This document shows positions 1-30,353 of a stretch of DNA of 42,235 nucleotides, in pieces; positions within the stretch are counted from its first letter, which is position 1, and each line of letters starts with the position of its first letter. A program made the translations under genes and the position numbers. This DNA is from a virus: UHGV virus genome UHGV-1993760, one strand, 5' to 3'. The notes below the pieces were generated by a model. It was not told where the DNA came from. It did no database searches and worked only from the letters and a program-made list of their open reading frames with translations.

Positions 1-1248
1 GAGCAGTTTGCGGACAAACGCCGCGTTCGCCATCTCCAGCCCGGTCGCATCGTCCGGCGGGGTTGGTGTGGTTGGCGTGCCGGTGAACGCCGGGCTGTCC
101 AGCGGCGCTTTTGTATTCGTCTCGTCCATGACGACTTTGACGGCTTTTGGTGTGGCCGCCAGTTCTTCGCTGTCGTTATCCGTGTCACTACAGAGTTGCA
201 CCAGGCCTTTTTCTGTCGTGGTGGCATTACTTCCCTTCAGGTCATCAACAATCTGCTGCGCCTCGTCCCTGCACCGTTTCGCTTCCTGCGCATTGCCTTC
301 GCTCGCATCCTGACTGGCCTTCGCCTGCCGGGCGTATTCTGCGGTGGCATTTTCATGTCCCTGCGCCTTATTTGCCGCATTTTCTGCACTGGTCGCAGCC
401 GAAGATGCTGCTTCTTTATGCTGGCAGGCACGTTCAGCAGCATCAACCGATTCATCCCGCGCTGCCCCTGATGTCTGTGCACTGTTTTCTGCCTCACCCG
501 CAAAACGTTCCGCATCATCACGGGCTGTTGTGGTGGCTTCTGCGTCCTGTGCGGTTTGCTGTGCGATTTCTGCTGCATTATCCGCGTGTTTTTTTGCATT
601 CTGCTCGCTTTTTGCTGCCACTTCGGCGCTGGCTTTTACCTCGCCGCTCAGCGTTGCGACTTCACCGAGTTTATCAACAGCCTTATCGACGATTTTGTCT
701 GCGTCCTTAACGGCCTGCTCTGCGCGAGCCGCATCCTGTGTGGCAGATGATGCCAGCTGTGCCACCTGCCTTTTATCTTCAGCAACGGCCTCGGCGTTCT
801 GCTGTACGTTATCCGCCAGCGTCTCGCAGTCGCTCTTGATTTGTTGCGCATCAGCGACATGTTGCCCGGCCTGTCGTTCGCTTTCCGCTGCCGCCTCCGC
901 GCTCTGCTGCGCCTGCGCCACCAGTTCTTCGAACCGCTTAACGACATCCGGTTTTAAATCGCCTTCATCGAGGGCGGTCAGAAAGTCGTTCAGTGTACCG
1001 GGCTTTGAATCGTCGTAAACCGAAATATCACCAACACAATATTCTCTTTCAATACATGACCGAAGATAAACGTCATATCTTCCGGTCTGAGCCTCAAATG
1101 CATATTCTCCTGCCGGCCCCGTCAAAACTGTTGCCACCGTTCTCATAACCACTGCGGATGTATTCTGTCGGGCTTTCAGAATAATATGGTATCCGGACAT
1201 GGGGAGTCCCGTGCCATCCGTCAGCACACCCGAAATTAATACAGACAT
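1..1248 (-). CDS. side tail fiber protein, lambda Stf-like N-terminal and shaft region (partial; gene runs off the window start)
   Basis: Not in ORF track because no stop lies in the window. ATG at 1248-1246 preceded by AGGA; frame is open to position 1. Translation MSVLISGVLTDGTGLP...GTLNDFL...long Ala/Gln/Glu-rich coiled shaft...LAATPKAVKVVMDETNTKAPLDSPAFTGTPT matches my recollection of lambda Stf. Confidence 0.6.
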   Translation of the reverse strand, partial: MSVLISGVLTDGTGLPMSGYHIILKARQNTSAVVMRTVATVLTGPAGEYAFEAQTGRYDVYLRSCIEREYCVGDISVYDDSKPGTLNDFLTALDEGDLKPDVVKRFEELVAQAQQSAEAAAESERQAGQHVADAQQIKSDCETLADNVQQNAEAVAEDKRQVAQLASSATQDAARAEQAVKDADKIVDKAVDKLGEVATLSGEVKASAEVAAKSEQNAKKHADNAAEIAQQTAQDAEATTTARDDAERFAGEAENSAQTSGAARDESVDAAERACQHKEAASSAATSAENAANKAQGHENATAEYARQAKASQDASEGNAQEAKRCRDEAQQIVDDLKGSNATTTEKGLVQLCSDTDNDSEELAATPKAVKVVMDETNTKAPLDSPAFTGTPTTPTPPDDATGLEMANAAFVRKLL

Positions 1249-1272
1249 GTTTATTTCCTGATTCAGAAAACA

Positions 1273-2361
1273 TTAACCAAAATAATTGACGCCTTTTTTC
1301 TTGCCACTGGCTTTCCCCTTTGCAGAAATATCCGTGGTCAGTGACAGATTCAGCGTAAATCCCTGTCCCGGTACCAGTGAAAACTCCACAGACTCAGCCT
1401 GCCAGTGATGGTCCTCACGCACACCAAATCCCTGCGTGACAAAACGCATCTCCGCCCCTGCTTTCAGCAGTTCCGGCCTGCAGGGCAACGTTATCGTCAT
1501 CTGGCGTCCGGCTTTCTGCACACGTTTAACCTTCGACTCTGCACAGTGTTTTGCGGTGCCCTGGTCAGGCTGGGTAAACGGATGCCGCTTATCTGTTGAC
1601 TCCACGTCAACTTTAACTTCACGTGTGCGTCCGTCACGAGCATCAAAATACCGGACCCCAACTTTCCCGCTCTTTTTATCCCCCTTCGCACCACCCGCAG
1701 CGCCCTGTCGCTCACCTTCACGATAATCCCAGTCTGATACCATACCCGGCGTAATGGTTATCTCGGGCGCATTTCTGCCCCCCGTACTCTGTGATGCCCC
1801 GTATTCCAGAAATAACCAGTAGCCACTGGTCGGTTTACTGGTGGCGCCGTACATACCTGCAATGCGGGATAAGAGGGCAGCATCAGATTCTGATGACTGC
1901 ATCACCCACGGGATATGAATATCAGCAAGCACCGATGAGACGCGCGCCACCAGATTATTTTCAGTGGCGATGGTTTTCACCAGGTCGCCCAGTGTGATAT
2001 CGCTGAAAGCCCGGGTTTTCAGTGCGGTCACGTCTGCGCCATGTTTTGACGCATTCATGGGGGCTGCGGTGGCATAAATGGTGAGCCGGCGGGGAGGACC
2101 ACCGCTTGCCACCTGACAGACGGTAAAACTGCCTTTATTGACCAGATTTCCGTTGAACCCCAGTCCCAGCGTTAGCACCGCGCCTTTCGGTGGCAACGCC
2201 AGCGTCTCGCTGAACAGCGTTATCATCAGTTCATCGGACCGCTTTGTGCCAGCACCATTATCGGTATATCGCAGCTCAGCCAGCCCACGTTTTATTGCCT
2301 TCGTGATATCCTGGCCTTCCGCTGTCAGACTGAAATCCGGCTGATATTCATTCAGTCCCAT
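1273..2361 (-). CDS. tail protein D (P2 gpD-like late gene D family)
   Basis: 362 aa ORF at the distal end of the tail operon after U and X; residue pattern resembles P2 gpD as recalled. Confidence 0.65.
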   Translation of the reverse strand: MGLNEYQPDFSLTAEGQDITKAIKRGLAELRYTDNGAGTKRSDELMITLFSETLALPPKGAVLTLGLGFNGNLVNKGSFTVCQVASGGPPRRLTIYATAAPMNASKHGADVTALKTRAFSDITLGDLVKTIATENNLVARVSSVLADIHIPWVMQSSESDAALLSRIAGMYGATSKPTSGYWLFLEYGASQSTGGRNAPEITITPGMVSDWDYREGERQGAAGGAKGDKKSGKVGVRYFDARDGRTREVKVDVESTDKRHPFTQPDQGTAKHCAESKVKRVQKAGRQMTITLPCRPELLKAGAEMRFVTQGFGVREDHHWQAESVEFSLVPGQGFTLNLSLTTDISAKGKASGKKKGVNYFG

Positions 2362-2570
2362 AACTGAAACGTCTCCTTCACTTCCGGTTCATATACCCAG
2401 TCCGGCAACACGATTTCCACTCCCGCCGGATAGACCGGACCAAGGTCAGCCAGTCCGGGATTGGCTTCCAGTACCGCCGCCAGTGACTGGTTAAGCCCGG
2501 TACTGCCATAGTGTCTCTGGCAGATGTCATCCAGCATATCGCCGTCAGTAGTCCGCCAGTTTTTCGCCAT
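2352..2570 (-). CDS. tail protein X (P2 gpX-like)
   Basis: 72 aa; ...LAAVLEANPGLADLGPV...LPD... resembles P2 gpX; overlaps neighbours as in compact tail operons. Confidence 0.7.
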   Translation of the reverse strand: MAKNWRTTDGDMLDDICQRHYGSTGLNQSLAAVLEANPGLADLGPVYPAGVEIVLPDWVYEPEVKETFQLWD

Positions 2571-3039
2571 AGTATTTCAGCTCCAGTGTGAACGTTTTGT
2601 TCTTCGGCGCACCGCCGGGAAGAAAGGACGTGGTGTTATCTGAATAGGCGGTTGCCACGAAATACCCCATCACATCACCTGTGCTCGAGACCAGAAGATG
2701 CGGGGCCGGATTGTCATCCACCATCTGAACCAGTGTATCAAGGGCATCCATTCCCACACCGTCACGAAATCCCGCGTGCGCCATACCTTCAAGGGTTATT
2801 GTTCTGGCCCCCTTGCCGGTATACTGCAGCAGATCGTTTTTTCCGATAAGCTGTTGTTCATCCCATCGCCATTCCATCGTGCGCTTCATGGCGTTATAAG
2901 CAGCAGTATCAATACTGAATTCAAACTCACCAAACGACAGCATGACGCGGGAGGCGACATCCGTTAATGAGCCCACCGCGTCCCATGCTTCGCGCTCAAG
3001 CCGGTTTACACCCCAGCCCAGCAAATCCACCATATTCAC
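2545..3039 (-). CDS. tail protein U-like
   Basis: 164 aa ORF directly downstream of the tape measure gene, the position of P2 gpU; weak pattern resemblance only. Confidence 0.5.
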   Translation of the reverse strand: MNMVDLLGWGVNRLEREAWDAVGSLTDVASRVMLSFGEFEFSIDTAAYNAMKRTMEWRWDEQQLIGKNDLLQYTGKGARTITLEGMAHAGFRDGVGMDALDTLVQMVDDNPAPHLLVSSTGDVMGYFVATAYSDNTTSFLPGGAPKNKTFTLELKYYGEKLADY

Positions 3040-4688
3040 CCCCAGAATGCATCACCATCGGTCATGCGGGAACGCTGACCAAAATTAATATCTCCCAGAT
3101 TTTTCGTTACCCTGTCTGCCAGTTGTCCGGCATCCTCGCCGGGCTTCTGAGTGATGTTAAATTCCGCCCGTATCTGATACGTGGGTTTTACTTCCACCTG
3201 GCTGACACTGCCGGGGGTATACTGAAGAGCCGAGAGAGGATCCGAATTACCCTGCCCCTGAACTGCTGCAGGTAGTCCGTCAATATAGGTGCGGGATTTC
3301 TCTTTTATCGCCTTAAAATCAGGTTCTTCTTTCGGCCCCAGCAGAGGGTCGAGAAATGCATCAAACTTTTTATCGTCATGATTCCAGGGGAGATAACCGC
3401 GGGTGTCTTTATAGGCCTGTACAACCTGTTTTGTCAGGTCAGGATTTTGCCTGAGCAGTTCATCAAACCATTCACCCTGACCGTTTTTCTGCGCCACTGC
3501 TCTCGCCAGCTCCGGCGACCCCATTTTTGCCAGATACTCCAGCACTTCCCGTCGGTCCTCTCGCGGATCATCCGCCAGCCCCCACTCAATGGCTTTTTGT
3601 GTAATTCCGGCAAGAACTTTTCCAAATTTCCACATCCAGGCAGCCATGTCGATCAGCGCCGGCAGGGCATCATCACGAATAAATGCCCGGATTTTTTCCA
3701 GCCCACCATTCTTAAACCAGGCCGCAAGGTCATCCGTCACCTGTTGAATATGTGGGGCAAGTTCATTACCCAGCTGTCCGCTGATTTCATCAATGGAAGA
3801 ACTCAGAACATTACGGAGATTTGACAGTGCCACATGTCCCTGAACCGCGCCATCAGCCCCTGCCTTTGTCACCAGGTTATAGCGTTTCTGCTCACTGATA
3901 AGCTCCCGATAAGTTTTCCCTGACAGACGCATCCAGGTCAGAATTTTATTGGCCTCACCACCGAACAACGCATCAGCCATCCCCGCCGCCTGCTGCTCAT
4001 TCTCAACCTGCAGTAAGCGATCAAACAAAAATTCGACCTGCTCCTGGTTGCTTTTTCCGGCCATTACGCCCGCTTTCAGCCCCAGTTTACCGAATACCTC
4101 CTGAATGGCTCCTTTGTCCGTGGCACCATTATCATCGTCAAAAACCTTGTTCCGGTATTCCTCAAACAGATCACCGATGTTTTCACCGTTTAACCCCATC
4201 TGACGGCCCAGTGAATCCCACGCCGCATAGGTTTCATAGTCCACCCCGTAGCTCCGCGCTATCCCTGCACGCTCTGCTGTTTCCGAATTCCGGTTCAGTA
4301 CCGCACTTGCACCTGCTGCCAGCGTAAGCCCGGAACCAACCGAAAGCCCCAGCCCGGTCTTAAGAACGGTCCCGGCCCACCCTTTCCAGCGAGCCAGACG
4401 TTCCGCGCGCGCCAGCTTACGGTTAAATTTGTCCTGCTCTCCGGTGGCATCATGAATTTTTTTACCCAGCTTTTCATACTGCTTTCGCAGATCAGTAATA
4501 TCCTGTCCAGCCAGAACGCCAGCCTGAATTTTTCGTTTCAGTACGTCCTGCTGGCGTGTCAGACGAGCCACTTCCTGTGTTGCCCCTGATAATCCGTGCT
4601 TCAACCCATCAACCGATTTTTTCCACGACGGATCTATCGTGCCTCCGATCCGGATATTCGCTTTAAGGTTATCGCCCACCGTTGCCAT
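3036..4688 (-). CDS. tail tape measure protein
   Basis: 550 aa, helical/Gly-Ala-rich, directly downstream of the E/E' chaperone pair whose frameshifted product overlaps its start. Confidence 0.7.
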   Translation of the reverse strand: MATVGDNLKANIRIGGTIDPSWKKSVDGLKHGLSGATQEVARLTRQQDVLKRKIQAGVLAGQDITDLRKQYEKLGKKIHDATGEQDKFNRKLARAERLARWKGWAGTVLKTGLGLSVGSGLTLAAGASAVLNRNSETAERAGIARSYGVDYETYAAWDSLGRQMGLNGENIGDLFEEYRNKVFDDDNGATDKGAIQEVFGKLGLKAGVMAGKSNQEQVEFLFDRLLQVENEQQAAGMADALFGGEANKILTWMRLSGKTYRELISEQKRYNLVTKAGADGAVQGHVALSNLRNVLSSSIDEISGQLGNELAPHIQQVTDDLAAWFKNGGLEKIRAFIRDDALPALIDMAAWMWKFGKVLAGITQKAIEWGLADDPREDRREVLEYLAKMGSPELARAVAQKNGQGEWFDELLRQNPDLTKQVVQAYKDTRGYLPWNHDDKKFDAFLDPLLGPKEEPDFKAIKEKSRTYIDGLPAAVQGQGNSDPLSALQYTPGSVSQVEVKPTYQIRAEFNITQKPGEDAGQLADRVTKNLGDINFGQRSRMTDGDAFWG

Positions 4689-5114
4689 AACATCGCTTCC
4701 TCTCTTCCGACTCCGCCAGCATCATTGCCACAAAATCCGTATACGGCAGCGCCATCACATCTCCGGGAGACCACCCGAACCAGGCACCGGCACGCCGTAT
4801 CGCTGTCAGGATGCTTTCTTCTTCCGCCGGACCGGCGGCAGCAAAAAAACATTAAACTGACGCTCCAGGGCCAGGTAATCACACGCTTCCATGTTCATCA
4901 TGTCTGCCGCGTCCATCCCACACAGACCGGCAATCATATCCAGATCAGCCTCTGCTTCCGGTTTGTTACTCCGGCGATGCAACAGACGATCGCGGACAGT
5001 GGGCGCACGCATAGTGACGTGCGTGATCGTCTGTCCTGATGCGGTGACATACGGCACGGATAACACAATTTCCACGCTGCTGGCAGGAACACTGTTTTTT
5101 TCCGACATAAGCAT
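4669..5114 (-). CDS. tail assembly chaperone E+E' (predicted programmed -1 frameshift product)
   Basis: Minus-strand T_TTT_TTG heptamer (plus-strand A-run 4843-4849) in the zero frame of E; the -1 frame stays open for about 57 codons and stops at TAA 4671-4669, overlapping the tape-measure start, as in P2 E/E'. Confidence 0.55.
4806..5114 (-). CDS. tail assembly chaperone E (P2 gpE-like)
   Basis: 102 aa ORF between tail tube and tape measure; contains the slippery heptamer near its 3' end. Confidence 0.65.
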   Translation of the reverse strand: MLMSEKNSVPASSVEIVLSVPYVTASGQTITHVTMRAPTVRDRLLHRRSNKPEAEADLDMIAGLCGMDAADMMNMEACDYLALERQFNVFLLPPVRRKKKAS

Positions 5115-5167
5115 CTCCTTTAAAAAGAAAAGGCAGCCTGAGCTGCCTGAATGACAGGATCCCCGGA

Positions 5168-5686
5168 TTAAACCCGGATGATTTTTTTCAGATCCGCCAG
5201 AACATTAACGCCGTTAATACGACGCACAAATTCCTCCGGAATAATGCAGATGGTTTCCACACCGTCAACAGCCTGACGGTAATAACTCAGTGACATTTCC
5301 ACCGTCACCGAAGCCTCTGCCTGTGACGTTGCGGGACGCGCATCCGGCGTGATACTGGTGATCATCCCCTGCAGAGTTTCCACCTGCCCGCTGGTCGCAT
5401 TCCCCACCTGGTAAGCCTGGCGGACAACAATCTCCGGCGAATAAAGCCCGGCCTGTAATCCCAGCAGCGTAAGCATGGCAACATCATAACCATAAATCTT
5501 AAACGAACAGGTCAGCGCTTCCATGCCGTCATCCACTGCCACCGGTGCATCCATTGCGCCAGTTTTGATATCCACTGTCGTGATATTAATGGCAGGTGGC
5601 GTGTATTCATGTGCCCCCTGAAGGCGGATTCCGCCAGGAAGAAATAACGCCCATGCGCGCAACAGTTTTTTTTCACCCGTCATCAT
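5168..5686 (-). CDS. tail tube protein (P2 FII-like)
   Basis: 172 aa ORF immediately downstream of the sheath gene; size and position typical. Confidence 0.65.
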   Translation of the reverse strand: MMTGEKKLLRAWALFLPGGIRLQGAHEYTPPAINITTVDIKTGAMDAPVAVDDGMEALTCSFKIYGYDVAMLTLLGLQAGLYSPEIVVRQAYQVGNATSGQVETLQGMITSITPDARPATSQAEASVTVEMSLSYYRQAVDGVETICIIPEEFVRRINGVNVLADLKKIIRV

Positions 5687-7158
5687 ACCGTCAGTTCCTC
5701 CAGCGCCAGTTTATTGTTAATCATTGCCCGCAGTGTCAGGCGCTCCAGTGGTGACTTCGGCCCAAAGTCATAATCGATATACAACTGCCCTGCCGCCAGG
5801 GTTTCTGCAGTGTTCAGTTCATCGTTCAGCCATGCACTGCCACCGTGGATCGCGCCCAGATTTTTAAGCTGACGCATATAGGCATTAATGCTGCCAAGAA
5901 TGTCGTCTGCCACATCCCGATCAAGCGGGCGATCGACATAAGGCAGCATGGCCTCCTGGATGCTGTCCTCAATCACATCTGCAGTGCGGCGTACCGGCTC
6001 AAAACGCCACTGACTGTGGGATGTGCACAGACGGTTACCCCAGTGTTTAAAACCGTCATGGCGAATAATGGTGGAGATATTTTCCATGTTCAGCAGGTTT
6101 GCCGTGCAGTTCTGCTCCCCGAGAATAAACGTATCCACCTGCTCCAGACCGGTGATATTCATCACGTCCTGGTTTGATTTGGACCACCACCACCCTTTTT
6201 CGTAATCAATACGGGCACGCAGCCCGGCAGCACGAGCCGAATATGGACGAAATATCGTTTGCCCGCTGTCATCCGTCACTGACACGCGCGGACGCAGCAG
6301 CTCCACACGCCCACCAAATGACGCGCGCCGCTGAACCACATCCTGCGGCGTTGCCATTGAAGGCGAGTCAATATAGGCCACAGCCCGCAGCTTCACGGCA
6401 TACGTTTCCAGCGCCTTTGCCACGCCATCATCCTCACTGTACCCCGTGGCAATGAGGACGCGCGGTTGATAGCCTGTCACGCCCTTACTTTCTGTCAGCG
6501 CCTCCATGGCCTGAATCACCGCCGCACGCTGTTCGGCCTCTTTCGTCTTTGTTTTACTTTCTGCGCGCACCACAATCACCAGCGCACCAGTCTGGTCAAA
6601 AATATCTCGCAGGGCCGGGTATAATGTTCCGGCTGTGCCCAGTTTCCCTGCCTGAGTAATGGCCCCTGCCACCACCACTGGTGTATTGACCGGGAACGCC
6701 TCATCTTCTCCGCCGGATAACGTCAGGCTGAACGGCAACACCACTTTATTTTCAGCGTCTCCTGCATTCAAGGTGCTGACAGCCGCCGTCACAGGCGAAT
6801 CCCCCAGCGCATTCACCACTTCAGTCACACGGTCCGCCGTGGCGTTAACCTGGCTGTGTTCGTCCGTCCCCAGTGTTATCGTCAGGGTCGTACCTTTCAG
6901 CGAGGCCACTGTCTGCGCGTTTTGTTCTGTGGCAGCCACAGCAACAACCGAAATCTTATTACCGGCCCGACCTTCCTGTTTCGCCGTGAAATCCAGCGCC
7001 GTTCCCAGCAGCCAGGAGCCGGCTGTGCCGGAAGCGCACACACCACCAGAGGCGTCCGGCGCTGTCCCCACCAGGCCAATCACTGCCGTGGAGATGGTCT
7101 GCACGGCAACCGTGCCTGTCGTCAGTTCAATGGTTTCAACACCATGTAATCCGGGCAT
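5683..7158 (-). CDS. contractile tail sheath protein (P2 FI-like)
   Basis: 491 aa; N-terminus ...TISTAVIGLVGTA... and C-terminus ...AETLAAGQLYIDYDFGP...LERLTLR... resemble P2 FI as recalled. Confidence 0.8.
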   Translation of the reverse strand: MPGLHGVETIELTTGTVAVQTISTAVIGLVGTAPDASGGVCASGTAGSWLLGTALDFTAKQEGRAGNKISVVAVAATEQNAQTVASLKGTTLTITLGTDEHSQVNATADRVTEVVNALGDSPVTAAVSTLNAGDAENKVVLPFSLTLSGGEDEAFPVNTPVVVAGAITQAGKLGTAGTLYPALRDIFDQTGALVIVVRAESKTKTKEAEQRAAVIQAMEALTESKGVTGYQPRVLIATGYSEDDGVAKALETYAVKLRAVAYIDSPSMATPQDVVQRRASFGGRVELLRPRVSVTDDSGQTIFRPYSARAAGLRARIDYEKGWWWSKSNQDVMNITGLEQVDTFILGEQNCTANLLNMENISTIIRHDGFKHWGNRLCTSHSQWRFEPVRRTADVIEDSIQEAMLPYVDRPLDRDVADDILGSINAYMRQLKNLGAIHGGSAWLNDELNTAETLAAGQLYIDYDFGPKSPLERLTLRAMINNKLALEELTV

Positions 7159-7212
7159 ACATTTCTCCCATAAAAAAACCGCCCTCAGGCGGTCAGATGA
7201 TTAACTTCTTTT

Positions 7213-7758
7213 TCAGGTATTTTGTGGCTGCTCAGGCCAGCTAATATTGTTGTAAGTGGTCTTATCCGTAATAGCGCTGAAATCCATCGCCTGCAGCGAT
7301 TTCGCGTAAATGCGGTACGCTTTGAGCTTTTCCCTGTCTTCGTCGCTGATTAAACCCAGCAGCAGGTCTTTTTCCCATTCGCTGGTCATGATACTGACCT
7401 GTTTTAACAGTGCGTCACGCTCATCTTCCGCTTTAAGTTTGTAGTCGAAAACAAATTCATCATTGCGGTAGAACCAGTATCCCGACGCCTCAATGCGACG
7501 ATTAGCGGTAATATCCGGCAACTCAATCACACTTTTATTTTCCGGGCAGATTGAGGTGATGTCTTTTCCAACCCAGACCACTTCGCCAGTTTCAACATAA
7601 ATAACTTTCAGAGTGTCTGGCTGAAATTTTTCCTGGGCTTCGTGCCATTCCTGACCATCATCGGAGAGCAGCCACAATAAAAATTTATGCTGTCGCGCCA
7701 GCTGGTATTGCTCAATTGTTTTAGGGTTTTGTACCGTAAGATTTTTTAAGTGCATCAT
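7213..7758 (-). CDS. tail fiber assembly chaperone (Tfa / P2 gpG-like)
   Basis: 181 aa ORF directly downstream of the tail fiber gene; typical Tfa size and position. Confidence 0.75.
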   Translation of the reverse strand: MMHLKNLTVQNPKTIEQYQLARQHKFLLWLLSDDGQEWHEAQEKFQPDTLKVIYVETGEVVWVGKDITSICPENKSVIELPDITANRRIEASGYWFYRNDEFVFDYKLKAEDERDALLKQVSIMTSEWEKDLLLGLISDEDREKLKAYRIYAKSLQAMDFSAITDKTTYNNISWPEQPQNT

Positions 7759-7760
7759 AA

Positions 7761-9146
7761 TTACAAACTCGCTACATTCCGCCAGACGCCATTAATCAGA
7801 ACCTGCACCGGGCGGGCATTGGCCCAGTCCATACTTTCACCACCATCAAGACCGCTGATAAGGTGACCTGATGGTGCGTTCCCGCCACGCCCAATACCAA
7901 TGGCACTGCCCAGACGCACATCCTGTACACCGCCTGTTTTGGTCTGATAGCGGGCATCAAAGTTTCCGTAGTTTGATGGAACCATCTGCCCGTTTACAGC
8001 GAACGTTATACTGTTATCCGTATTCCTCTGACTGTAAAAATGCCAGCCGGAATCATCACCAAGCTCTGCAACTACAGGTCGGGATGAATTACCCCATAAA
8101 TTAAACGTTGCGTTTTTCGTGGAGTTGTTGGCGCTGGATAACGTGAATTTTTTAGCATTTCCGGCCTGAATATTTTTTAACGCTATCGCCACACCATTCT
8201 GGAAACGAAATACATGCTGTCCATTCGCATAAACATCCAGAATGCCGTCGCCGTTTTGTTTTATACCTGTATCGTTATCCCCGAAAGCAATTGAGTTTCC
8301 GCCCAGCGCGTTCTGAACGCCGATACCCAGCGCACCATTGACCTGAGAACCGCCGCCAACAGACACTTTATGCGACATGGATATTTCACCCGTCCGCAGA
8401 TTAATAGTGAACGGTCGAAGTGGACCAATATCGCCATTCTCGCCCTGACCTTCACTGGTAGGGATAAGGTGCAGGCACTCTTCCGAACGACGAAAAATCA
8501 GACCAAAGGCTTCGTTGAAAATCCTCAGCGCATTAACACCACGGATTTTCAGTTCCCCGGTCATGGTGTCACCATCACGCTGAACGGCATTTTTTGCCTT
8601 GTCCACCGTGGGTTTTAATCCGAGGTTTTCAACAGCCTCATCCTTGTCTTCCACATCCGAAAGATTCTTTTTTCGTTGCAGATAGCGTCTGTCTCCGATT
8701 TCCTGAGTAATAATGGCCCTGTCCGGATCAACTTCCAGCACCACGTTTTGTGCGTGCGTCAGCCCAAGAACCAGCGTCAGAATAACTTCCTTGATAACAG
8801 AGTCCGTCTGGTCTGGTAAAAAGGTGTCGGGATAACGTCCGTACGCGATAAGCGTACCTCTGTCGCTGATCATCCCCAGTTCACGAAGGGTTTTACCGGG
8901 GTATGATTTACAGTCAATCACAATATCCCCGCTGATGAAGCCCTCCTCCACCGCACCGTCGGAAAAGGGTTCCTGCCCGAATTCGCCGTACAACGATGTC
9001 ATTGCTGCCATTTCATCCGGCGTGGATGGCAATGCCCGCCCGCCCCCGTCACCAAGCAGAACATGCCGGACGGTCACGGTTTGCCCGTTCTGATATGCTG
9101 CTTCAATTTCTGCAGCGCCGGACGTTGTCAGAATCAGTCCATTCAT
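7761..9146 (-). CDS. tail fiber protein (P2 gpH-like with Stf-like C-terminal receptor-binding region)
   Basis: 461 aa; C-terminus ...GDNDTGIKQNGDGILDVYANGQHV...NYGNFDARY...VLINGVWRNVASL resembles lambda Stf / P2 H C-termini as recalled. Confidence 0.8.
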   Translation of the reverse strand: MNGLILTTSGAAEIEAAYQNGQTVTVRHVLLGDGGGRALPSTPDEMAAMTSLYGEFGQEPFSDGAVEEGFISGDIVIDCKSYPGKTLRELGMISDRGTLIAYGRYPDTFLPDQTDSVIKEVILTLVLGLTHAQNVVLEVDPDRAIITQEIGDRRYLQRKKNLSDVEDKDEAVENLGLKPTVDKAKNAVQRDGDTMTGELKIRGVNALRIFNEAFGLIFRRSEECLHLIPTSEGQGENGDIGPLRPFTINLRTGEISMSHKVSVGGGSQVNGALGIGVQNALGGNSIAFGDNDTGIKQNGDGILDVYANGQHVFRFQNGVAIALKNIQAGNAKKFTLSSANNSTKNATFNLWGNSSRPVVAELGDDSGWHFYSQRNTDNSITFAVNGQMVPSNYGNFDARYQTKTGGVQDVRLGSAIGIGRGGNAPSGHLISGLDGGESMDWANARPVQVLINGVWRNVASL

Positions 9147-9733
9147 ACACCTGCCTCACTCTGCCCGCCTGTGGGCACTGTCTTTGTTGTCACACCGGTA
9201 CTTCTGATTTTTTCTGTCGCCATCACATAGCCGTAACCAAATCCACGCCCTGTGCTGTTCCCGTAAACGTGAATACTGAACCAGCTGCGCAGATTTTTGG
9301 CACGGAGCACCGCATGCTTCAGATCCTGATGATCATTCATCAGCACCGGTAAATCTTTCTGCTCCACGTTCAGACGGAAGGTATACGGCTCCCCGGGTGG
9401 GGTCTGCTCATACCACTCAACAATCTGCGACCGGAAGGGACTGTCAGCCAGCGATGCCATCAGCGCCGCTTTAGTCCCTCTGTGGCGGTGGATGTATGCA
9501 GCACGTTTTATCGCAGACCTTTTTTCCGCCTCCGTCCAGTGTTCATTCCAGGTGTCCACCGCCATTTCCCAGGCCAGCCATGGCAGCAATTCAGCAGGAC
9601 ATAAATCGGGATTTTTGACATAGCGGATCAGACATACTGCGATTTCCGCCAGCATATCACCGGCGGTACTGTCCACCACCCGCTCTGCCCGGCTGGCGCT
9701 GACAGGAAGTATGCTTCTGATTTTGTCATTCAT
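9143..9733 (-). CDS. baseplate/tail protein I (P2 gpI-like)
   Basis: 196 aa; position between J and the fiber gene; overlapping stop/start. Confidence 0.65.
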   Translation of the reverse strand: MNDKIRSILPVSASRAERVVDSTAGDMLAEIAVCLIRYVKNPDLCPAELLPWLAWEMAVDTWNEHWTEAEKRSAIKRAAYIHRHRGTKAALMASLADSPFRSQIVEWYEQTPPGEPYTFRLNVEQKDLPVLMNDHQDLKHAVLRAKNLRSWFSIHVYGNSTGRGFGYGYVMATEKIRSTGVTTKTVPTGGQSEAGV

Positions 9734-10640
9734 CGGTTGTCTCCACCTTGTTCAGTGTGACTGAGCGACACCACGGTGCCTGCCCCATCGCAGGAACGAT
9801 ATCACTGCCCGGAGAGGTCAGATTCACCGTAATCACCCCGGTCTGGTGAAGGGCACCATCCATACCAGAACGGGATGCCACCGAGCCAATCCGGTGGACG
9901 CTGTCAGTGTATGACTGCAGCGCCTTGCGGGCATTTGCCATAACCAGTTCACCATCCAGTCCGTAGGGAATATGAATATCCGCCACCACATCGTAGGGAA
10001 TAATTTCTGCCGTCCGGACACTGACAAAATCCGTCAGGGGACGGGTTTCATCATCACAAACTGATGCTGCCACCTTATCCAGCAGGGGGTGTGATGCAGT
10101 GCCATTTCCGGACCGGGATAACACATAAAGAAAAACCCGGCCTTCCTGCGAATGTGTTTCCGGCCCGTAAGCCTTCACATCCAGCACATCAGGATCAGCA
10201 CTTTGTGCAAAATAGTGATACGCATTTTTCGCGCCAGCGGTGCTGAGCCGTGCCCATGACAACTGGATACGTTCGCGAAAAGCGTCATCATCTTCATACA
10301 CCGCCGGCGTGGGCGGAATGGTGCTGTCGTCTGCCGGGGTAATAACCAGCCGCTGAACCTGATAATTCGCGCCAACCTGATCCAGATCGTTCCCACCGGC
10401 ACTGGCAAGCAGTACAGCACGGACAGCATCATTTATCTGCTGGCGCATCAGCGCCACCCGATAAGCCAGCGCCTCTGCCCATTTATACGCGGGATCAGAT
10501 TCCACCAGAGCCGAAAACAACGTATCCAGCTCCTGATACTTCGCCACTATCTGAGTGACCAGCACAGCGGTGTCCGGCACCTCCACCGCATCCGGTACTG
10601 GTATCGCGGACAGATCAATAATTGCCTGAGACGTTGCCAA
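9726..10640 (-). CDS. baseplate assembly protein J (P2 gpJ-like)
   Basis: 304 aa; conserved position after W; overlapping operon arrangement. Confidence 0.75.
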   Translation of the reverse strand: MATSQAIIDLSAIPVPDAVEVPDTAVLVTQIVAKYQELDTLFSALVESDPAYKWAEALAYRVALMRQQINDAVRAVLLASAGGNDLDQVGANYQVQRLVITPADDSTIPPTPAVYEDDDAFRERIQLSWARLSTAGAKNAYHYFAQSADPDVLDVKAYGPETHSQEGRVFLYVLSRSGNGTASHPLLDKVAASVCDDETRPLTDFVSVRTAEIIPYDVVADIHIPYGLDGELVMANARKALQSYTDSVHRIGSVASRSGMDGALHQTGVITVNLTSPGSDIVPAMGQAPWCRSVTLNKVETTDE

Positions 10641-10971
10641 TTTTTATCTCCTCGAGTCGAATCGTATCCTGAGTTTCGTTATTCACCCCGACAAGCGTCA
10701 GCCACGCGCTTCCTTCTCCTGTCCACGTCACTTCCACCCGCCGGAGAGTCAGGCGGGGTTCCCAGCGTTCAAGGGCGGTTACCGTTTCACGAACAATTCT
10801 CACCCGCGTGAAATCATCCTGTGGGTTATCAAGCAGACTGAAAAGTCTGCTGCCGTATTCCCTGAGCAGGACCCGGCTGCCGACCGGTGTTGACAAAATA
10901 TCGGTGACGGACTGGCGCAGATGTTCGTTACCGTGCAGATATCTGCCGGTGGCTGAATCAATACCAATCAT
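10615..10971 (-). CDS. baseplate protein W (gp25/GPW family)
   Basis: 118 aa; ...SVTDILSTPVGSRVLLREYGSRL... is a GPW/gp25-like pattern. Confidence 0.8.
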   Translation of the reverse strand: MIGIDSATGRYLHGNEHLRQSVTDILSTPVGSRVLLREYGSRLFSLLDNPQDDFTRVRIVRETVTALERWEPRLTLRRVEVTWTGEGSAWLTLVGVNNETQDTIRLEEIKIGNVSGNY

Positions 10972-11004
10972 GTTGTTTATTCCGGAAAAAGAACTGAAAG
11001 GAGA

Positions 11005-11628
11005 TTACATTTGCTGACCAGGCTGTCCGGTGCTGCCACCACTGTCGCCCCGGTGATTGTGACCGTTATAGACAATTCTGATTTGACTCATCGTTCCGTG
11101 ATAATCAGAAACCTCACCACCGACCATCAGATCCGCCTTAACCACCGCCTCAGCATTCATGGTTGCTTTACCCTGTACGGTCAGGGTATCTGTGATTTCT
11201 ACCGGACCGTCCAGGGTTCCCCTGCCGGTAATTTTATAGCTGCCGCCTTCAGCCAGCGTGATGGACAGGGCATTAGCCTGACGGTCGTAACGGATTTCCG
11301 TTCCGGTATCAAACAAAATAACATGTTCGTATTCACTGCCCTCAGGGACAGGAATGGCGTCAATATTAGCCCCCGGATACACCCGACCGTTACGCAGATC
11401 GCCTGCCTCCGATATCACTGTAACGGCATCTCCGGGAGCCGGGTAATTACTGACTTGCATGTAGCGCCCGGACTGTACCTGAATCCAGGGCAACGGAGGC
11501 GAAAGCACATCCCCGATATCCACCCGAACCATAACCGGGCTACCCGGGATCACCTCGTCCACCACGCCGCGACGGACCATGTCCGCCACCCTGCGGCGTA
11601 ACTCTGCCACTTCATCTGCCAGACTCAT
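11005..11628 (-). CDS. baseplate spike protein V (P2 gpV-like)
   Basis: Internal ATG at 11628-11626 preceded by GGAGG; MSLADEVAELRRRVADMV... The upstream 98 codons of track ORF 11005..11922 overlap the preceding gene and look spurious. Confidence 0.6.
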   Translation of the reverse strand: MSLADEVAELRRRVADMVRRGVVDEVIPGSPVMVRVDIGDVLSPPLPWIQVQSGRYMQVSNYPAPGDAVTVISEAGDLRNGRVYPGANIDAIPVPEGSEYEHVILFDTGTEIRYDRQANALSITLAEGGSYKITGRGTLDGPVEITDTLTVQGKATMNAEAVVKADLMVGGEVSDYHGTMSQIRIVYNGHNHRGDSGGSTGQPGQQM

Positions 11629-12178
11629 CACCGGTGCCCTCCGATTTCCAGATAAGACGATAATCCTGCTCATGTCTCTTGCCGGTTTCCGGTACTTTAC
11701 CCAGCCAGACTTCCTGTAACGGCGCACCTGCCGGAACCGCAAACGGATCTTCGCCGACCGGAATGTCCTGTTCGAAAGAGACACGGAAAACGATGTAGTC
11801 GTCCAGCAGCCGGTCGAAGGTATCCACCTCAGCATCGATAAAAACCGCCGGATCAACGTTATCCAGCCCGAACGTGGCTCCCTCAATCCAGTCAGATAAA
11901 TCCATCGCCAGACAACGGGCAAAAATCTGCGGTTTTGGCACGTTTTCCGTCTTCCCGGCCCGGTCTGTCACCACAAACAGATCACATTTCAGCGTGACCC
12001 GCGTTTGCCCGTCAGCAAAATGAGCCTTGTCCCAGCCCGGTACATCCACAAACACAGCAGGCGTCACCAGTTGCGTCACTTTTTCCGGGTACTCATCGGC
12101 ATCTTCCACCCAGGGAATTTGTTTCAGACTGTCAATCACCGCCTGATGCCAGGCGCCCATCATCAATGGCTCCATCAC
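11612..12178 (-). CDS. putative tail completion protein (P2 R/S position)
   Basis: 188 aa ORF between head completion genes and baseplate V; assignment by position only. Confidence 0.35.
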   Translation of the reverse strand: MMEPLMMGAWHQAVIDSLKQIPWVEDADEYPEKVTQLVTPAVFVDVPGWDKAHFADGQTRVTLKCDLFVVTDRAGKTENVPKPQIFARCLAMDLSDWIEGATFGLDNVDPAVFIDAEVDTFDRLLDDYIVFRVSFEQDIPVGEDPFAVPAGAPLQEVWLGKVPETGKRHEQDYRLIWKSEGTGDESGR

Positions 12179-12897
12179 TCCAGCCCCTTAAATACCCGGA
12201 ATTTCAGTTCATGCTCAAAATTTTTCAGGATCAGTGCTTCCGCATCCGGAAAAACAAAATCCTCTATACGGTTCAGCATGGCTTCATAAATATCAATTTC
12301 CGCTTCACGCACCCTCCGTCGTCCGGATGCCTGTCGGATCAGTATCGTTTTCCTTTTTGATATACGTCCGTTACGATTTTCCGCTTCGAACTGATTGATA
12401 AAGGCATCATCCGTTGACCAAGTGGTGACAGGCAGGGATTCCCCTGCAGGTTTAAAACGGATCTCCCGTGCCTTCCTGCGGCGGGAAGCTGGTGCAAAAC
12501 GCCCCCGCTCATCGCGCAACTGATGGCGTTCGCCGCGTCGCCCCCCACTGATGCGTCCGCGCAGATCGCGTACTTTGATGGCATTCAGACCGAACCATAC
12601 CTTCGCCTCATCAAACTCATCACCGTTACGACGAATGATAAAATTATGCAGAACACGCTTTTTGATCATTTTCTGACTGCGTGGGGCAACCTGTTTTTTA
12701 AACTCTGCCATAGCCTTCATCCGCAGTGCAGACGCGGCTCTTTTCAGCGCCACGCCCCAGGCTTTACGGATCTGACTTTTTGACCCACCCAGTTTAGCGA
12801 TAATTTTCAGCACCTCATCTTCATCAATATCGACGACGAGGTTTCGTGCCAGCCGTCGCTGCCGGGCACTGCTTCGTTCATGCTCTCTGACTGCCAT
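12175..12897 (-). CDS. putative virion morphogenesis / tail completion protein
   Basis: Arg/Lys-rich ORF; likely start at ATG 12897 (MAVREHER...), since the longer track start overlaps FII; function assigned by position. Confidence 0.35.
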   Translation of the reverse strand: MAVREHERSSARQRRLARNLVVDIDEDEVLKIIAKLGGSKSQIRKAWGVALKRAASALRMKAMAEFKKQVAPRSQKMIKKRVLHNFIIRRNGDEFDEAKVWFGLNAIKVRDLRGRISGGRRGERHQLRDERGRFAPASRRRKAREIRFKPAGESLPVTTWSTDDAFINQFEAENRNGRISKRKTILIRQASGRRRVREAEIDIYEAMLNRIEDFVFPDAEALILKNFEHELKFRVFKGLE

Positions 12898-13285
12898 AAC
12901 GTTTACTCGGTCGTTCCGGTGCAGCAGGTGTATTTCTCCCCGGCTCTCCACGCGCAAGGGTGATGGTAATCACCCCCTGACCCACAGTGCCTGACTCACC
13001 CCAGCCGGGATCGACTACCTGATAGGGTTCGCCGTGGATCATGACCCTGTCATATTTTTTCAGACCGGCGGCCCATGCGCTCCGGGTAAATAACACGGGC
13101 GCAGTATCACGAATTTCGCCGCTGCCAGTGTTCATCCCGGTGTTTTCTGCCGGGGCATCAAAAACGGCACGGATTCTTCTTTCCGTGCCGTCCGGATATA
13201 TGCTGATTTCCGTCCCCATCGTATCCAGGATGATGTCATCCGCATCGCTCATGGCCTGATCGAACAGATTATCTAACATCATCAC
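12878..13285 (-). CDS. head completion protein (lambda FII-like)
   Basis: 135 aa; MMMLDNLFDQAMSDADDII... resembles lambda FII as recalled; ATGA overlap with FI stop. Confidence 0.7.
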   Translation of the reverse strand: MMMLDNLFDQAMSDADDIILDTMGTEISIYPDGTERRIRAVFDAPAENTGMNTGSGEIRDTAPVLFTRSAWAAGLKKYDRVMIHGEPYQVVDPGWGESGTVGQGVITITLARGEPGRNTPAAPERPSKRYGSQRA

Positions 13286-13647
13286 TCCCGGATTTTTTCT
13301 GCCAGACCGTCCGCCAGCAACGCTGGAACTGCGGCTTCATTAACCAGCACAACACTGGAGGCCCGGGCAAACATCAACATTTTTCCCGTCACAGCATCAC
13401 AGGCTGGCATATGCGCCGTTTTCAGCATACGCACCCGGGCGAGTCCCCGCTCAGAATGCATTCCGTCGCCGGATGCATCGTTGCCCACCTCTTCCTTCCC
13501 TGTCTCCTCCCCATCGAATCCGGCGGCCTCCTCTTCCCATTCCGCCAGGCGCTGCTCAAGATCGGCTTTTGAACCTGAAATATCTGCTTCACGCCCCAGA
13601 ATCACTGCCAGTTCCTGCAAACGTTCAGTCATCTGCTCTTTTGTCAT
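13282..13647 (-). CDS. DNA packaging protein FI (lambda FI-like)
   Basis: Internal ATG at 13647 with GGGAGA 6 nt upstream; MTKEQMTERLQELAV... resembles lambda FI; C-terminal ...ERGLARV... motif. Confidence 0.65.
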   Translation of the reverse strand: MTKEQMTERLQELAVILGREADISGSKADLEQRLAEWEEEAAGFDGEETGKEEVGNDASGDGMHSERGLARVRMLKTAHMPACDAVTGKMLMFARASSVVLVNEAAVPALLADGLAEKIRE

Positions 13648-13697
13648 CACATCTCTCCCGTGCGCTAAAGAAAAAGGCGGGAATATCCCGCCTGACC

Positions 13698-14726: not shown

Positions 14727-14795
14727 AATTTATTTTCCTTCAGAAACACAAACGGGCCGCATCGCGACCCGTTTTTTCAGTCAATCACTTCACCA

Positions 14796-15131: not shown

Positions 15132-15169
15132 TTTTCAGTCTCCTGATTTATCTGAATTCCGGATATCGC

Positions 15170-18553: not shown

Positions 18554-18556
18554 TCT

Positions 18557-28589: not shown

Positions 28590-28591
28590 CT

Positions 28592-30290: not shown

Positions 30291-30353
30291 AAGATTCTCC
30301 GTTACTTTATCCTGGTATTATATACACATAAAAGTTGGGAAAGTAGAACGATT

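What the first reader, a model, noticed from the sequence alone, without database searches (positions are those of the whole stretch)
4669..5114. Conserved programmed -1 frameshift site (T_TTT_TTG) in the tail chaperone gene
The zero frame of the E-like ORF contains the heptamer T TTT TTG. The -1 frame downstream stays open for about 57 codons and terminates inside the start of the tape measure gene, as for P2 E/E' and lambda G/GT. This is expected biology, but it supports the gene calls and shows the track ORF 4634..4882 is the wrong frame.
Basis: seen in the sequence. Interest (0 to 1): 0.3.

Follow-up and report, generated by a model that had tools for sequence, protein, structure and literature searches.

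The report
Tail chaperone -1 frameshift site, confirmed
This E. coli prophage has the slip site T_TTT_TTG near the end of its tail assembly chaperone gene, where some ribosomes most likely step back one base to make a longer second protein, as in phage P2; this is ordinary, expected phage biology that automatic annotation misses here.

Summary
On the minus strand, the chaperone ORF (ATG 5108, stop 4808..4806) contains T_TTT_TTG in phase at 4848..4842. The -1 frame then runs 57 sense codons to TAA 4671..4669, which is 20 nt inside the tape measure gene (ATG 4688).

The string alone is not significant (18 copies in the window, 14.7 expected). The comparative evidence is what supports it:
- In 11 family members (51-100% aa identity), T_TTT_TTR is kept at the nucleotide level. 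Codon -1 always ends in T although its amino acid varies; TTT is never TTC; Leu is always TTG or TTA.
- The -1 frame is open for 54-64 codons in all 11.
- pN/pS is 0.47 in the -1 frame, 1.11 in the zero frame and 1.41 in the +1 frame.

The zero-frame part is Pfam PF10109, as is P2 gpE. A profile of the fused proteins aligns colinearly across the junction with P2-type E+E' proteins (HHalign 95.6%).

The "track ORF" 4634..4882 is the +1 frame and is spurious. No conserved downstream hairpin was found. A CTGGAG 14 nt upstream is invariant and may act as an SD-like stimulator; this is unproven.

RefSeq annotates no frameshift product in any of the five E. coli records inspected. Verdict: a new, unannotated member of a well-known kind. 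Interest is low.

The parts
5168..5686 (-). Tail tube gene (P2 FII-like), immediately upstream of the chaperone gene.
   Evidence: PF04985 Phage_tube, E 4.4e-24. RefSeq names it 'phage major tail tube protein'.
4806..5108 (-). Tail assembly chaperone, zero-frame product (E-like): 100 aa plus TGA at 4808..4806. The mechanical ORF starts at 5114, but ATG 5108 is the likely start; the SD AAGGAG lies at 5120..5115.
   Evidence: PF10109 Phage_TAC_7, 2.1e-12, residues 14-89 against profile positions 2-78 of 79. phrog_166 'tail protein', 7e-24. RefSeq CDS of 100 aa. The 5114 ATG is not conserved.
4863..4868 (-). CTGGAG (Leu-Glu codons). The GGAG is 14 nt upstream of the heptamer and is a possible internal Shine-Dalgarno-like stimulator. 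This is inferred and unproven.
   Evidence: CTG and GAG are each invariant in 11 of 11 family members. In the 40-codon stretch printed, no other degenerate codon conserved in all 11 members is invariant, apart from the heptamer codons. The spacer is 14 nt, inside the 6-17 nt range used for stimulatory SD-like sequences in PMC4066793. Against: Citrobacter phage Chris1 has CTGGAT there.
4842..4848 (-). Slippery heptamer T_TTT_TTG, in phase with the chaperone frame (GTT TTT TTG). It is part of a run of seven T (4849..4843).
   Evidence: Conserved as T_TTT_TTG (8) or T_TTT_TTA (3) in 11 family members. Codon -1 is GTT, GAT, AAT or GCT (always a 3' T), TTT is never TTC, and Leu is never CTN. All E. 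coli and IMG/VR copies examined carry it.
4809..4841 (-). Zero-frame tail after the heptamer (LPPVRRKKKAS). This stretch is read in both frames and is poorly constrained in the zero frame.
   Evidence: The zero-frame stop lies 9-13 codons after the heptamer codon in different relatives. UTAK-3 has an earlier TAA while its -1 frame is intact.
4669..4842 (-). E'-like extension in the -1 frame: 57 codons (AAAGPAEEESILTAIRRAGAWFGWSPGDVMALPYTDFVAMMLAESEERKRCYGNGGR) plus TAA 4671..4669. Joined to residues 1-89 of the chaperone, it gives a 146-aa, ~16.0-kDa fusion.
   Evidence: Open for 54-64 codons in all 11 relatives. pN/pS is 0.47 with no stops, against 1.11 and 1.41 in the other two frames. Third-position excess of substitutions in the -1 frame, chi-square p 0.005. 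The first possible start codon in this frame is codon 29.
3036..4688 (-). Tape-measure-like gene (550 aa). Its first 20 nt overlap the end of the -1 frame.
   Evidence: Weak hits to several tape measure PHROGs (5.6e-10 and weaker), and phrog_3654 (function unknown), 4.9e-215. Annotated 'phage tail tape measure protein' in some E. coli genomes and 'hypothetical protein' in most. It is followed by gpU-, gpX- and gpD-like genes.
4821..4841 (-). Local GC-rich hairpin (CCGCCG-GUC-CGGCGG), 3 nt after the heptamer. Present in this sequence but not supported as a conserved stimulator.
   Evidence: -11.4 kcal/mol; z-score -1.3 on 30 nt and -0.12 on 42 nt. Reduced to 3 bp in Salmonella and other relatives. 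The consensus fold of 11 sequences is only -4.2 kcal/mol.
4634..4882 (-).
   Evidence: Listed. No Pfam or PHROG hit. Its frame carries stops in 9 of 11 relatives and has pN/pS 1.41.

Best explanation

Most ribosomes read the zero frame to TGA 4808..4806 and make a 100-aa chaperone. A minority do something else. With tRNA-Phe on UUU in the P site and tRNA-Leu on UUG in the A site, they slip back one base on U_UUU_UUG. They then continue in the -1 frame for 57 codons and make a 146-aa fusion, E+E'-like, with the junction ...QFNVFL|AAAGPAEEE....

By analogy with lambda and P2, the shared N-terminal part binds the tape measure protein, and the extension recruits the tube subunit. The slip frequency fixes the ratio of the two proteins.

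Shown here: the site, its phase, the open frame, nucleotide-level conservation of the site, purifying selection on the -1 frame, and homology to P2 E/E+E'.

Inferred: that the fusion is made, by ribosomal slippage, at a low fixed level, and what each part binds.
For: Anatomy:
- Heptamer in phase, followed by a 57-codon -1 frame ending 20 nt inside the tape measure gene.
- Gene context sheath-tube-E-T-U-X-D.

Family:
- PF10109 at 47.3 bits (cut-off 25), with the domain ending exactly at the slip site, as in P2 gpE.

Conservation in 11 members at 51-100% aa identity:
- T_TTT_TTR sits at the same codon. The third base of codon -1 is always T although the amino acid is V, D, N or A. TTT 11/11. TTG or TTA 11/11.
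- The -1 frame is open for 54-64 codons in all, and the zero-frame stop moves.
- pN/pS is 0.47 in the -1 frame, against 1.11 (zero frame) and 1.41 (+1 frame), and 0.34 for the upstream E part.
- The E' part is about as conserved as the E part.

Link to P2:
- P2 is annotated with a -1 frameshift at the same heptamer, 8 codons before the E stop, with E+E' ending 8 nt inside gene T.
- HHalign of our fusion profile against a P2-type fusion profile gives 95.6%, E 1.2e-8, colinear through the junction.

Literature:
- P2 shifts at TTTTTTG to give a 91-aa E and a 142-aa E+E' (PMC3091744).
- The lambda G/GT ratio is crucial for tail assembly, and P2-type efficiency is 2-3-fold higher (PMC5009743).
Against: - There is no direct evidence that the fusion protein exists.
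- The E' part does not reach the Pfam PF06528 (P2 GpE) threshold: no hit for the window, 13.5 bits against 23 for a relative. The profile-profile match of E' alone is only 78% over 29 columns.
- No conserved downstream stimulatory structure was found.
- The U_UUG tetramer was only 1.8- to 3.6-fold above background, and U_UU.U_UU.G is not listed among the most efficient motifs in E. coli in the reporter study PMC4066793.
- Two isolated phages of a sister clade (yong2, Chris1) keep the -1 E' frame but have GTT TTT ATG instead of a full heptamer. The canonical heptamer is therefore not indispensable for this gene arrangement.
Confidence: 0.9

Rival explanations
1. The fusion is made by transcriptional slippage. 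RNA polymerase adds one extra U in the run of seven T (4849..4843), and ordinary translation of that mRNA subpopulation gives the same E+E'-like protein.
For: The window has a T7 run. One inserted U puts the ribosome in the same frame as a -1 slip. Transcriptional slippage on homopolymer runs is a known route to such products (reviewed in PMC5009743).
Against: - What is conserved across the family is T6 followed by a purine, in a fixed codon phase, not run length. 6 of 11 members have only six T, and the sister-clade phages only five.
- The base after the run is always G or A, giving a Leu UUR codon. This fits A-site re-pairing but is irrelevant to polymerase slippage.
- P2, with T6, is described as a translational frameshift (PMC3091744).
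Confidence: 0.05
2. The -1 frame is a separate small gene translated from its own start codon, as RefSeq and Prodigal call it in some genomes (45-51 aa 'hypothetical protein'). No frameshift is involved.
For: RefSeq annotates a 45-aa ORF in this frame in strains RM9088 and UMNF18. Gene callers predict 50-51-aa ORFs in two metagenome contigs. Short fragments of 41-87 aa are the only form in which this peptide appears in the 1.84-billion-protein library.
Against: - Those starts come from a non-conserved substitution (ACA to ATG, T to M). The window has ACA there.
- The window's first ATG or GTG in this frame is codon 29-30, downstream of the most conserved motif RRAGAWFGWSP.
- Peptide conservation and purifying selection begin directly after the heptamer.
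- No SD-like sequence was seen upstream of codons 29-30 when reading the sequence; this was not scanned.
- The homologous P2 reading frame is annotated as part of gpE+E', made by a -1 frameshift from the E start (PMC3091744).
Confidence: 0.03
3. It is a chance heptamer next to a chance open frame, with no function.
For: TTTTTTG is no more frequent than expected in the window. In-phase heptamers are common: 52 in about 12,300 codons. One of them (A_AAA_AAC, 5100..5094) lies in this same gene and is clearly not conserved.
Against: The site is conserved at the nucleotide level, the open frame is conserved, the -1 frame is under purifying selection in lineages down to 51% identity, and the arrangement is homologous to P2 E+E' across the junction.
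Confidence: 0.02

Closest known systems
Phage P2 gpE / gpE+E' (FETUD tail operon; Christie et al. 2002, cited in PMC3091744 and PMC5009743)
   Same: - Same heptamer T_TTT_TTG in the same phase, close to the end of the E gene (13 codons before the stop here, 8 in P2).
- A 57-codon -1 extension in both.
- The extension ends just inside the tape measure gene (20 nt here, 8 nt in P2).
- Same gene order: tube-E-T-U-(X)-D.
- Same Pfam family for the E part (PF10109), ending at the slip site.
- The fusion profiles align colinearly (95.6%).

   Different: - Only about 22-25% amino acid identity to P2.
- The E' part falls below the PF06528 threshold.
- The tape measure is 550 aa rather than about 815 aa (P2 T, 19850..22297).
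- The prophage couples this P2-like tail to lambda-like head genes.
- No phage record in the 50,697-record collection is closer than 44%.
Phage lambda gpG / gpGT
   Same: Same logic: a chaperone gene between the major tail and tape measure genes, and a low-level -1 shift near its 3' end giving a fixed ratio of short and extended products. Neither product is in the virion (PMC5009743).
   Different: Lambda uses a different heptamer (G_GGA_AAG, from my own knowledge). I saw no sequence similarity. Lambda has a non-contractile tail.
Phage Mu tail chaperone, -2 frameshift (Xu et al. 2004, cited in PMC5009743)
   Same: The Pfam description of PF10109 names 'E, or 41 or 14'; 41 presumably refers to phage Mu gene 41 (my reading, Mu itself was not examined here). 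More distant PF10109 relatives examined here (Bcepmuvirus-like phage PhiKM, Pseudomonas prophages) carry an E'-like domain in the +1 (= -2) frame.
   Different: In the window the extension is in the -1 frame behind a canonical -1 heptamer, so it is the P2 arrangement, not the Mu one.
E. coli dnaX -1 frameshift signal (heptamer plus upstream SD-like element plus downstream hairpin)
   Same: A heptamer with a possible SD-like GGAG upstream (14 nt here). SD-like stimulators are described for prokaryotic -1 signals and are searched 6-17 nt upstream (PMC4066793).
   Different: There is no conserved downstream hairpin. The SD-like role is untested and is absent in phage Chris1. The shifted product here is longer than the zero-frame product, not shorter.

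Membership tests
Frameshifted tail assembly chaperone pair of tailed phages (lambda G/GT, P2 E/E+E' class) | Gene lies between the major tail (tube) gene and the tape measure gene. | tested here: met
   Tube gene 5168..5686 (PF04985), chaperone 4806..5108, tape-measure-like gene 3036..4688, then gpU-, X- and D-like genes.
Frameshifted tail assembly chaperone pair of tailed phages (lambda G/GT, P2 E/E+E' class) | A second reading frame overlaps the 3' end of the chaperone gene, has no start of its own, and is reachable by a -1 shift at an in-phase slippery heptamer. | tested here: met
   T_TTT_TTG at 4848..4842 in phase. 57 open codons in the -1 frame. A -1-frame stop lies two codons upstream of the site. 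The first ATG or GTG in the -1 frame is codon 29.
Frameshifted tail assembly chaperone pair of tailed phages (lambda G/GT, P2 E/E+E' class) | The site and the shifted frame are conserved among relatives, with coding constraint in the shifted frame. | tested here: met
   11 of 11 members keep T_TTT_TTR and a 54-64-codon -1 frame. pN/pS is 0.47 in that frame, against 1.11 and 1.41 in the other two.
Frameshifted tail assembly chaperone pair of tailed phages (lambda G/GT, P2 E/E+E' class) | Both products are made at a fixed ratio, and both are needed for tail assembly. | not testable with these tools
   This needs protein detection and genetics. It is known for lambda and P2 only from the literature (PMC5009743, PMC3091744).
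Pfam PF10109 Phage_TAC_7 (tail assembly chaperones E, 41, 14) | Score above the curated gathering threshold (25 bits). | tested here: met
   47.3 bits, E 2.1e-12, residues 14-89 against profile positions 2-78 of 79. P2 gpE+E' scores 47.8 bits over the equivalent positions.
Pfam PF06528 Phage_P2_GpE (the E' extension of P2-type phages) | Score above the curated gathering threshold (23 bits). | tested here: not met
   No hit for the window's extension even at E up to 10. The Trabulsiella relative scores 13.5 bits, E 0.052. P2 E' itself scores 78.6 bits.
Pfam PF06528 Phage_P2_GpE (the E' extension of P2-type phages) | Remote homology of the extension to P2-type E' by profile-profile comparison. 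| tested here: inconclusive
   E' profile against P2-type E' profile: 78%, E 1.8e-5, 29 columns around F-(G/H)-W-x-P. Full fusion profiles: 95.6%, E 1.2e-8, colinear across the junction. The alignments are small (11 and 8 sequences).
dnaX-type stimulated -1 signal | A conserved downstream stem-loop or pseudoknot. | tested here: not met
   The local hairpin is not exceptional (z -1.3 and -0.12) and is not conserved. The alignment fold is -4.2 kcal/mol. This agrees with the reported absence of hairpins in P2-like E+E' genes (PMC3091744).
dnaX-type stimulated -1 signal | An upstream SD-like element at a stimulatory distance. | tested here: inconclusive
   GGAG lies 14 nt upstream and is invariant in 11 of 11. 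It is GAGGAGG in phage yong2 but CTGGAT in phage Chris1. CTG and GAG are also common codons.
Mu-type -2 frameshifted chaperone | The extension is encoded in the +1 (= -2) frame. | tested here: not met
   The window's +1 frame is not conserved (stops in 9 of 11 relatives, pN/pS 1.41). The E'-like peptide is in the -1 frame.

The most novel reading that the evidence does not exclude
Two modestly novel readings survive.

(a) In this lineage the slip is boosted by an internal Shine-Dalgarno-like GGAG 14 nt upstream, as in dnaX. It is invariant in all 11 members and is strengthened to GAGGAGG in phage yong2, where the heptamer has decayed to a T_TTT tetramer. This would be unusual for tail chaperone frameshifts, which are generally described as lacking stimulators.

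(b) Within one homologous chaperone family (PF10109), a homologous E'-like domain is reached by a -1 shift in the enterobacterial P2-like lineages, and from the +1/-2 frame in Bcepmuvirus-like and Pseudomonas lineages. The direction of recoding would then have switched while the encoded domain was kept.
Probability: 0.25. Interest if true: 0.35.

Novelty: new member of a known kind. Interest (0 to 1): 0.15.

Why it matters
The main value is for annotation.

- In the five E. coli RefSeq records inspected, out of 74 genomes carrying this module, the extension is either left as an unannotated 117-nt gap or called as a truncated 45-aa 'hypothetical protein'.
- No protein covering both halves turned up in a 5.8-billion-cluster protein collection.
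- The extension is below the threshold of the Pfam model built for P2 E'.
- Recognising the site fixes three gene calls: the start at 5108, a joined E+E' CDS, and removal of the +1-frame ORF. It also adds a divergent branch to the P2 E/E+E' family.

It does not change what is understood about tail assembly or frameshifting.

Tried and rejected
- **Downstream stimulatory RNA.** Single-sequence folds of the window and eight relatives, and a consensus fold of 11 sequences, gave no conserved or exceptional structure. I dropped the hairpin at 4841..4821 as a functional element.
- **Close relatives among sequenced phages.** Megablast of 3000..7200 found nothing. tblastn found only distant relatives, at most 44%.
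- **NCBIfam.** No model matched the fusion or either E'.
- **Solved structures by sequence.** Only a chance match, E 0.5.
- **AlphaFold2 on the single fusion sequence.** Mean pLDDT was 51.6, too poor to use, so no fold search was run.
- **Exhaustive HMMER search with the E' peptide.** It gave only 12 hits: short fragments and repetitive long proteins.
- **Christie et al. 2002 (PMC135442).** The paper is not held. Statements about P2 rest on the GenBank record and on PMC3091744 and PMC5009743.
- **The second in-phase heptamer, A_AAA_AAC at 5100..5094.** Rejected as a programmed site because it is not conserved in close relatives.
- **Mapping the whole window onto strain CEA224S.** This failed. 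Only window 1..21392 matches, at 99.8%, so that annotation was used only for the structural half.
Full report
**What is at the coordinates**

The genes of this region are on the minus strand. The mechanical ORF 5114..4806 reads ...CAG TTT AAT GTT TTT TTG CTG CCG CCG.... T_TTT_TTG therefore sits at 4848..4842 in the X_XXY_YYZ phase, 13 codons before the TGA at 4808..4806.

A ribosome that slips back one base resumes at G4842. It reads GCT GCC GCC GGT... for exactly 57 sense codons, to TAA 4671..4669. The next large ORF, 3036..4688, begins at ATG 4688, so the shifted frame ends 20 nt inside it.

In the -1 frame a TAA lies two codons upstream of the slip point. The stretch in which the two frames can be joined is therefore only about 14 codons long, and the heptamer is the only slippery motif in it.

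Two corrections:
- The real start is most likely ATG 5108. AAGGAG 5120..5115 abuts the 5114 ATG. That ATG is missing in close relatives. RefSeq calls a 100-aa protein.
- ORF 4634..4882 is the +1 frame, a third frame, not the -1 frame.

**Is it more than chance?**

Not on the string alone. TTTTTTG occurs 18 times in the window against 14.7 +/- 4.2 expected. In-phase heptamers of the general form occur about once per 240 codons of long ORFs. One of them, A_AAA_AAC at 5100..5094, lies in this very gene and is not conserved.

A -1 frame open for at least 57 codons is found at 5.9% of codon positions. A heptamer in the last ~15 codons followed by such a frame is expected at roughly 0.004 for one gene; this is my rough product of those two numbers. 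The weight of the case is comparative.

**Identity and context**

- The zero-frame protein is Pfam PF10109 (Phage_TAC_7, 'tail assembly chaperone proteins E, or 41 or 14'): 47.3 bits against a cut-off of 25. The match runs from residue 14 to residue 89, which is the Leu of the heptamer.
- Upstream lie a sheath gene (PF04984/PF17482) and a tube gene (PF04985).
- Downstream lie a 550-aa protein with weak tape measure PHROG hits, then gpU-, gpX- and gpD-like genes. This is the P2 order FI-FII-E-T-U-X-D.
- The window is an E. coli prophage. The 600-nt region occurs in 74 of 5,426 complete genomes.
- Its structural half is 99.8% identical to a prophage of strain CEA224S, which combines lambda-like head genes with this P2-like tail module.

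**Comparative evidence**

I collected the locus from these sources:
- E. coli variants.
- 33 IMG/VR contigs; 31 of them, at 92-100% protein identity, went into the close-copy set.
- Trabulsiella, Cedecea and Dryocola genomes.
- Salmonella, Citrobacter and three metagenome contigs.

In all 11 distinct lineages (51-100% amino acid identity), the heptamer is at the same codon, as T_TTT_TTG (8) or T_TTT_TTA (3). The -1 frame is open for 54-64 codons.

The site is conserved at the nucleotide level, not the protein level:
- The codon before it encodes V, D, N or A but always ends in T.
- Phe is TTT 11/11, never TTC.
- Leu is TTG or TTA 11/11, never CTN.
- In the 40-codon stretch printed, the other degenerate codons conserved in all 11 members vary synonymously, with CTG GAG as the one exception.

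The shifted frame behaves as coding sequence:
- The zero-frame stop wanders (9-13 codons after the heptamer codon), and one E. coli variant has an earlier TAA that leaves the -1 frame intact.
- Over the 48 codons after the site, pN/pS is 0.47 in the -1 frame with no stop in any sequence. It is 1.11 in the zero frame (1-3 stops each) and 1.41 in the +1 frame (stops in 9 of 11).
- The upstream E part has pN/pS 0.34.
- Identity to the window is similar in the extension (44-90%) and the E part (56-97%).
- Among 23 unique close copies, substitutions downstream of the zero-frame stop are enriched at the third position of the -1 frame (17/12/32, p 0.005).
- The conserved peptide begins immediately after the heptamer: AAAG-x-AE..SI...RR.G.WFGW.P..[VI].A.P..F.....E..ER.

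**Relationship to P2**

- The P2 GenBank record annotates E (91 aa), E+E' (a joined CDS, -1 frameshift) and the shift site at the same heptamer. E+E' ends 8 nt inside gene T.
- Rebuilding P2 E+E' the same way gives the published 142 aa (PMC3091744).
- P2 gpE+E' also hits PF10109, positions 7-85 against profile positions 2-78, again ending at the slip site.
- The pairwise match to our fusion is weak (25% identity, E 0.13) but colinear through the junction.
- A profile of our 11 fusions, compared with a profile of 8 P2-type fusions, gives 95.6% probability, E 1.2e-8, over 114 columns, with the two FL junction residues aligned. The P2-type phages used were P2, PSP3, phiE12-2, a Klebsiella phage, phiCTX, Fels-2, a Mannheimia phage and an Aeromonas phage; six of them use T_TTT_TTG.
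- The extension alone gives 78%, E 1.8e-5, over 29 columns around F-(G/H)-W-x-P.
- The extension does not reach the Pfam PF06528 threshold.

I therefore file the E part as a member of the P2 E family. The extension I treat as a probable but unproven remote homologue of P2 E'.

**Stimulators**

A GC-rich hairpin (CCGCCG-GUC-CGGCGG) starts 3 nt after the heptamer in the window, but:
- It is not exceptional against shuffles.
- It shrinks to 3 bp in relatives.
- The consensus fold of the family is negligible.

This agrees with the reported absence of hairpins in P2 and P2-like E+E' genes (PMC3091744).

Upstream, CTGGAG (4868..4863) is invariant in all 11 members and places GGAG 14 nt before the heptamer. 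That is inside the 6-17 nt range in which SD-like stimulators were searched in E. coli (PMC4066793). Phage yong2 has GAGGAGG there, but phage Chris1 has CTGGAT, and CTG and GAG are common codons. I regard it as a possibility only.

The U_UUG tetramer was only 1.8- to 3.6-fold above background, and U_UU.U_UU.G is not among the most efficient motifs in E. coli, in the reporter study PMC4066793. That fits a low-level shift.

**Rival explanations**

- *Transcriptional slippage on the T7 run* would give the same protein. But the family conserves T6 plus a purine in a fixed phase, not run length.
- *Independent initiation of the -1 ORF* is what gene callers assume in some genomes. Those starts arise from a non-conserved ACA to ATG change. 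The window's first ATG or GTG in this frame is at codon 29, past the most conserved motif.
- *A chance, non-functional arrangement* is contradicted by the selection data.

**Mechanism**

Shown:
- The site and its phase.
- The open frame.
- Nucleotide-level conservation of the site.
- Coding constraint in the -1 frame.
- Homology to P2 E/E+E'.

Inferred from lambda and P2 (PMC5009743, PMC3091744):
- Most ribosomes terminate at 4806 and give the 100-aa chaperone.
- A minority slip on U_UUU_UUG and give a 146-aa, ~16-kDa fusion.
- The shared part binds the tape measure protein, and the extension recruits the tube protein.
- Neither protein ends up in the virion.
- The slip frequency sets their ratio.

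**Annotation status and novelty**

- RefSeq leaves the 117 nt between the chaperone and tape measure genes empty in the identical strain.
- No protein covering both halves was found in the 5.8-billion-cluster collection.
- The extension appears only as 41-87-aa fragments in the 1.84-billion-protein library.
- No sequenced phage is closer than 44%.

The case is thus an unannotated, divergent member of a thoroughly known class. Missing TAC frameshift joins are a recognised annotation problem (PMC10274946).

**Led nowhere**

NCBIfam, PDB by sequence, a single-sequence AlphaFold model (pLDDT 51.6) and megablast against phages all gave nothing useful.

Noticed in passing
window 5094..5100 (-): A second in-phase heptamer, A_AAA_AAC, at codons 3-5 of the same chaperone gene (GAA AAA AAC), with a 42-codon open -1 frame. 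It is not conserved: close E. coli relatives read GAG/GAA ATA AAC. It therefore looks like a chance site. A_AA.A_AA.C is listed in PMC4066793 as above 0.1% shifty without stimulators.
   Followed up: partly
window 5131..5148 (-), T-tract 5121..5130: A terminator-like hairpin (AGGCAGC-TCAG-GCTGCCT followed by TTTCTTTTT) in the 59-nt gap between the tube gene and the chaperone gene. A rho-independent terminator is annotated at the same place in Mannheimia phage 587AP1. It may be an attenuator lowering expression of the chaperone and tape measure genes relative to sheath and tube.
   Followed up: partly
L055 2745..2765 (Hafnia phage yong2); L071 640..660 (Citrobacter phage Chris1): Two isolated phages of a sister clade (42-44% identity) read GTT TTT ATG where the family has GTT TTT TTG. 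There is no canonical heptamer, only a T_TTT tetramer. Yet the -1 frame is open and encodes a recognisable E'-like peptide (HMM E 1.8e-8 for yong2). In Chris1 a -1-frame TAA directly upstream confines the shift to this spot. How the -1 frame is reached there is open.
   Followed up: partly
L054 2780..2890 (phage PhiKM, Bcepmuvirus); L009, L010, L013, L017 about 1780..1890 (Pseudomonas prophages): In more distant PF10109 chaperone genes, the E'-like peptide (G-F/W-x-x-x-E-I/V...) is encoded in the +1 (= -2) frame, not the -1 frame. There is no X_XXY_YYZ heptamer in the last 50 codons of the Pseudomonas genes. This fits the -2 frameshift described for phage Mu (PMC5009743) and suggests the recoding direction changed within one protein family.
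   Followed up: partly
window 3036..4688 (-): The tape-measure-position gene is only 550 aa (P2 gpT is about 815 aa). It has no Pfam hit, matches a PHROG of unknown function (phrog_3654, 4.9e-215), and is called 'hypothetical protein' in most RefSeq genomes.
   Followed up: partly
window 1..42235: The prophage is mosaic. Window 1..21392 (the lambda-like head genes and the P2-like contractile tail module) is 99.8% identical to a prophage of E. coli CEA224S. The early and regulatory half of the window does not match that strain.
   Followed up: partly
window 25795..26104 (-): A cluster of four tRNA genes (Gly-TCC, Thr-TGT, Lys-TTT, Met-CAT) inside the prophage.
   Followed up: no
window 34886..35074 (-): Rfam hits to C4 antisense RNA (82 bits) and, adjacent to it, isrK Hfq-binding RNA (62.7 bits). 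This pair is typical of P1/P7-type immunity or anti-repressor control regions.
   Followed up: no
window 1321 (-) and 13785 (-): Two other in-phase heptamers near gene ends whose -1 frames run past the stop: A_AAG_GGG, 15 codons before the end of the gpD-like gene, with 73 open codons; and C_CCG_GGG, with 165 open codons. They probably just run into other open frames by chance. Not examined.
   Followed up: no
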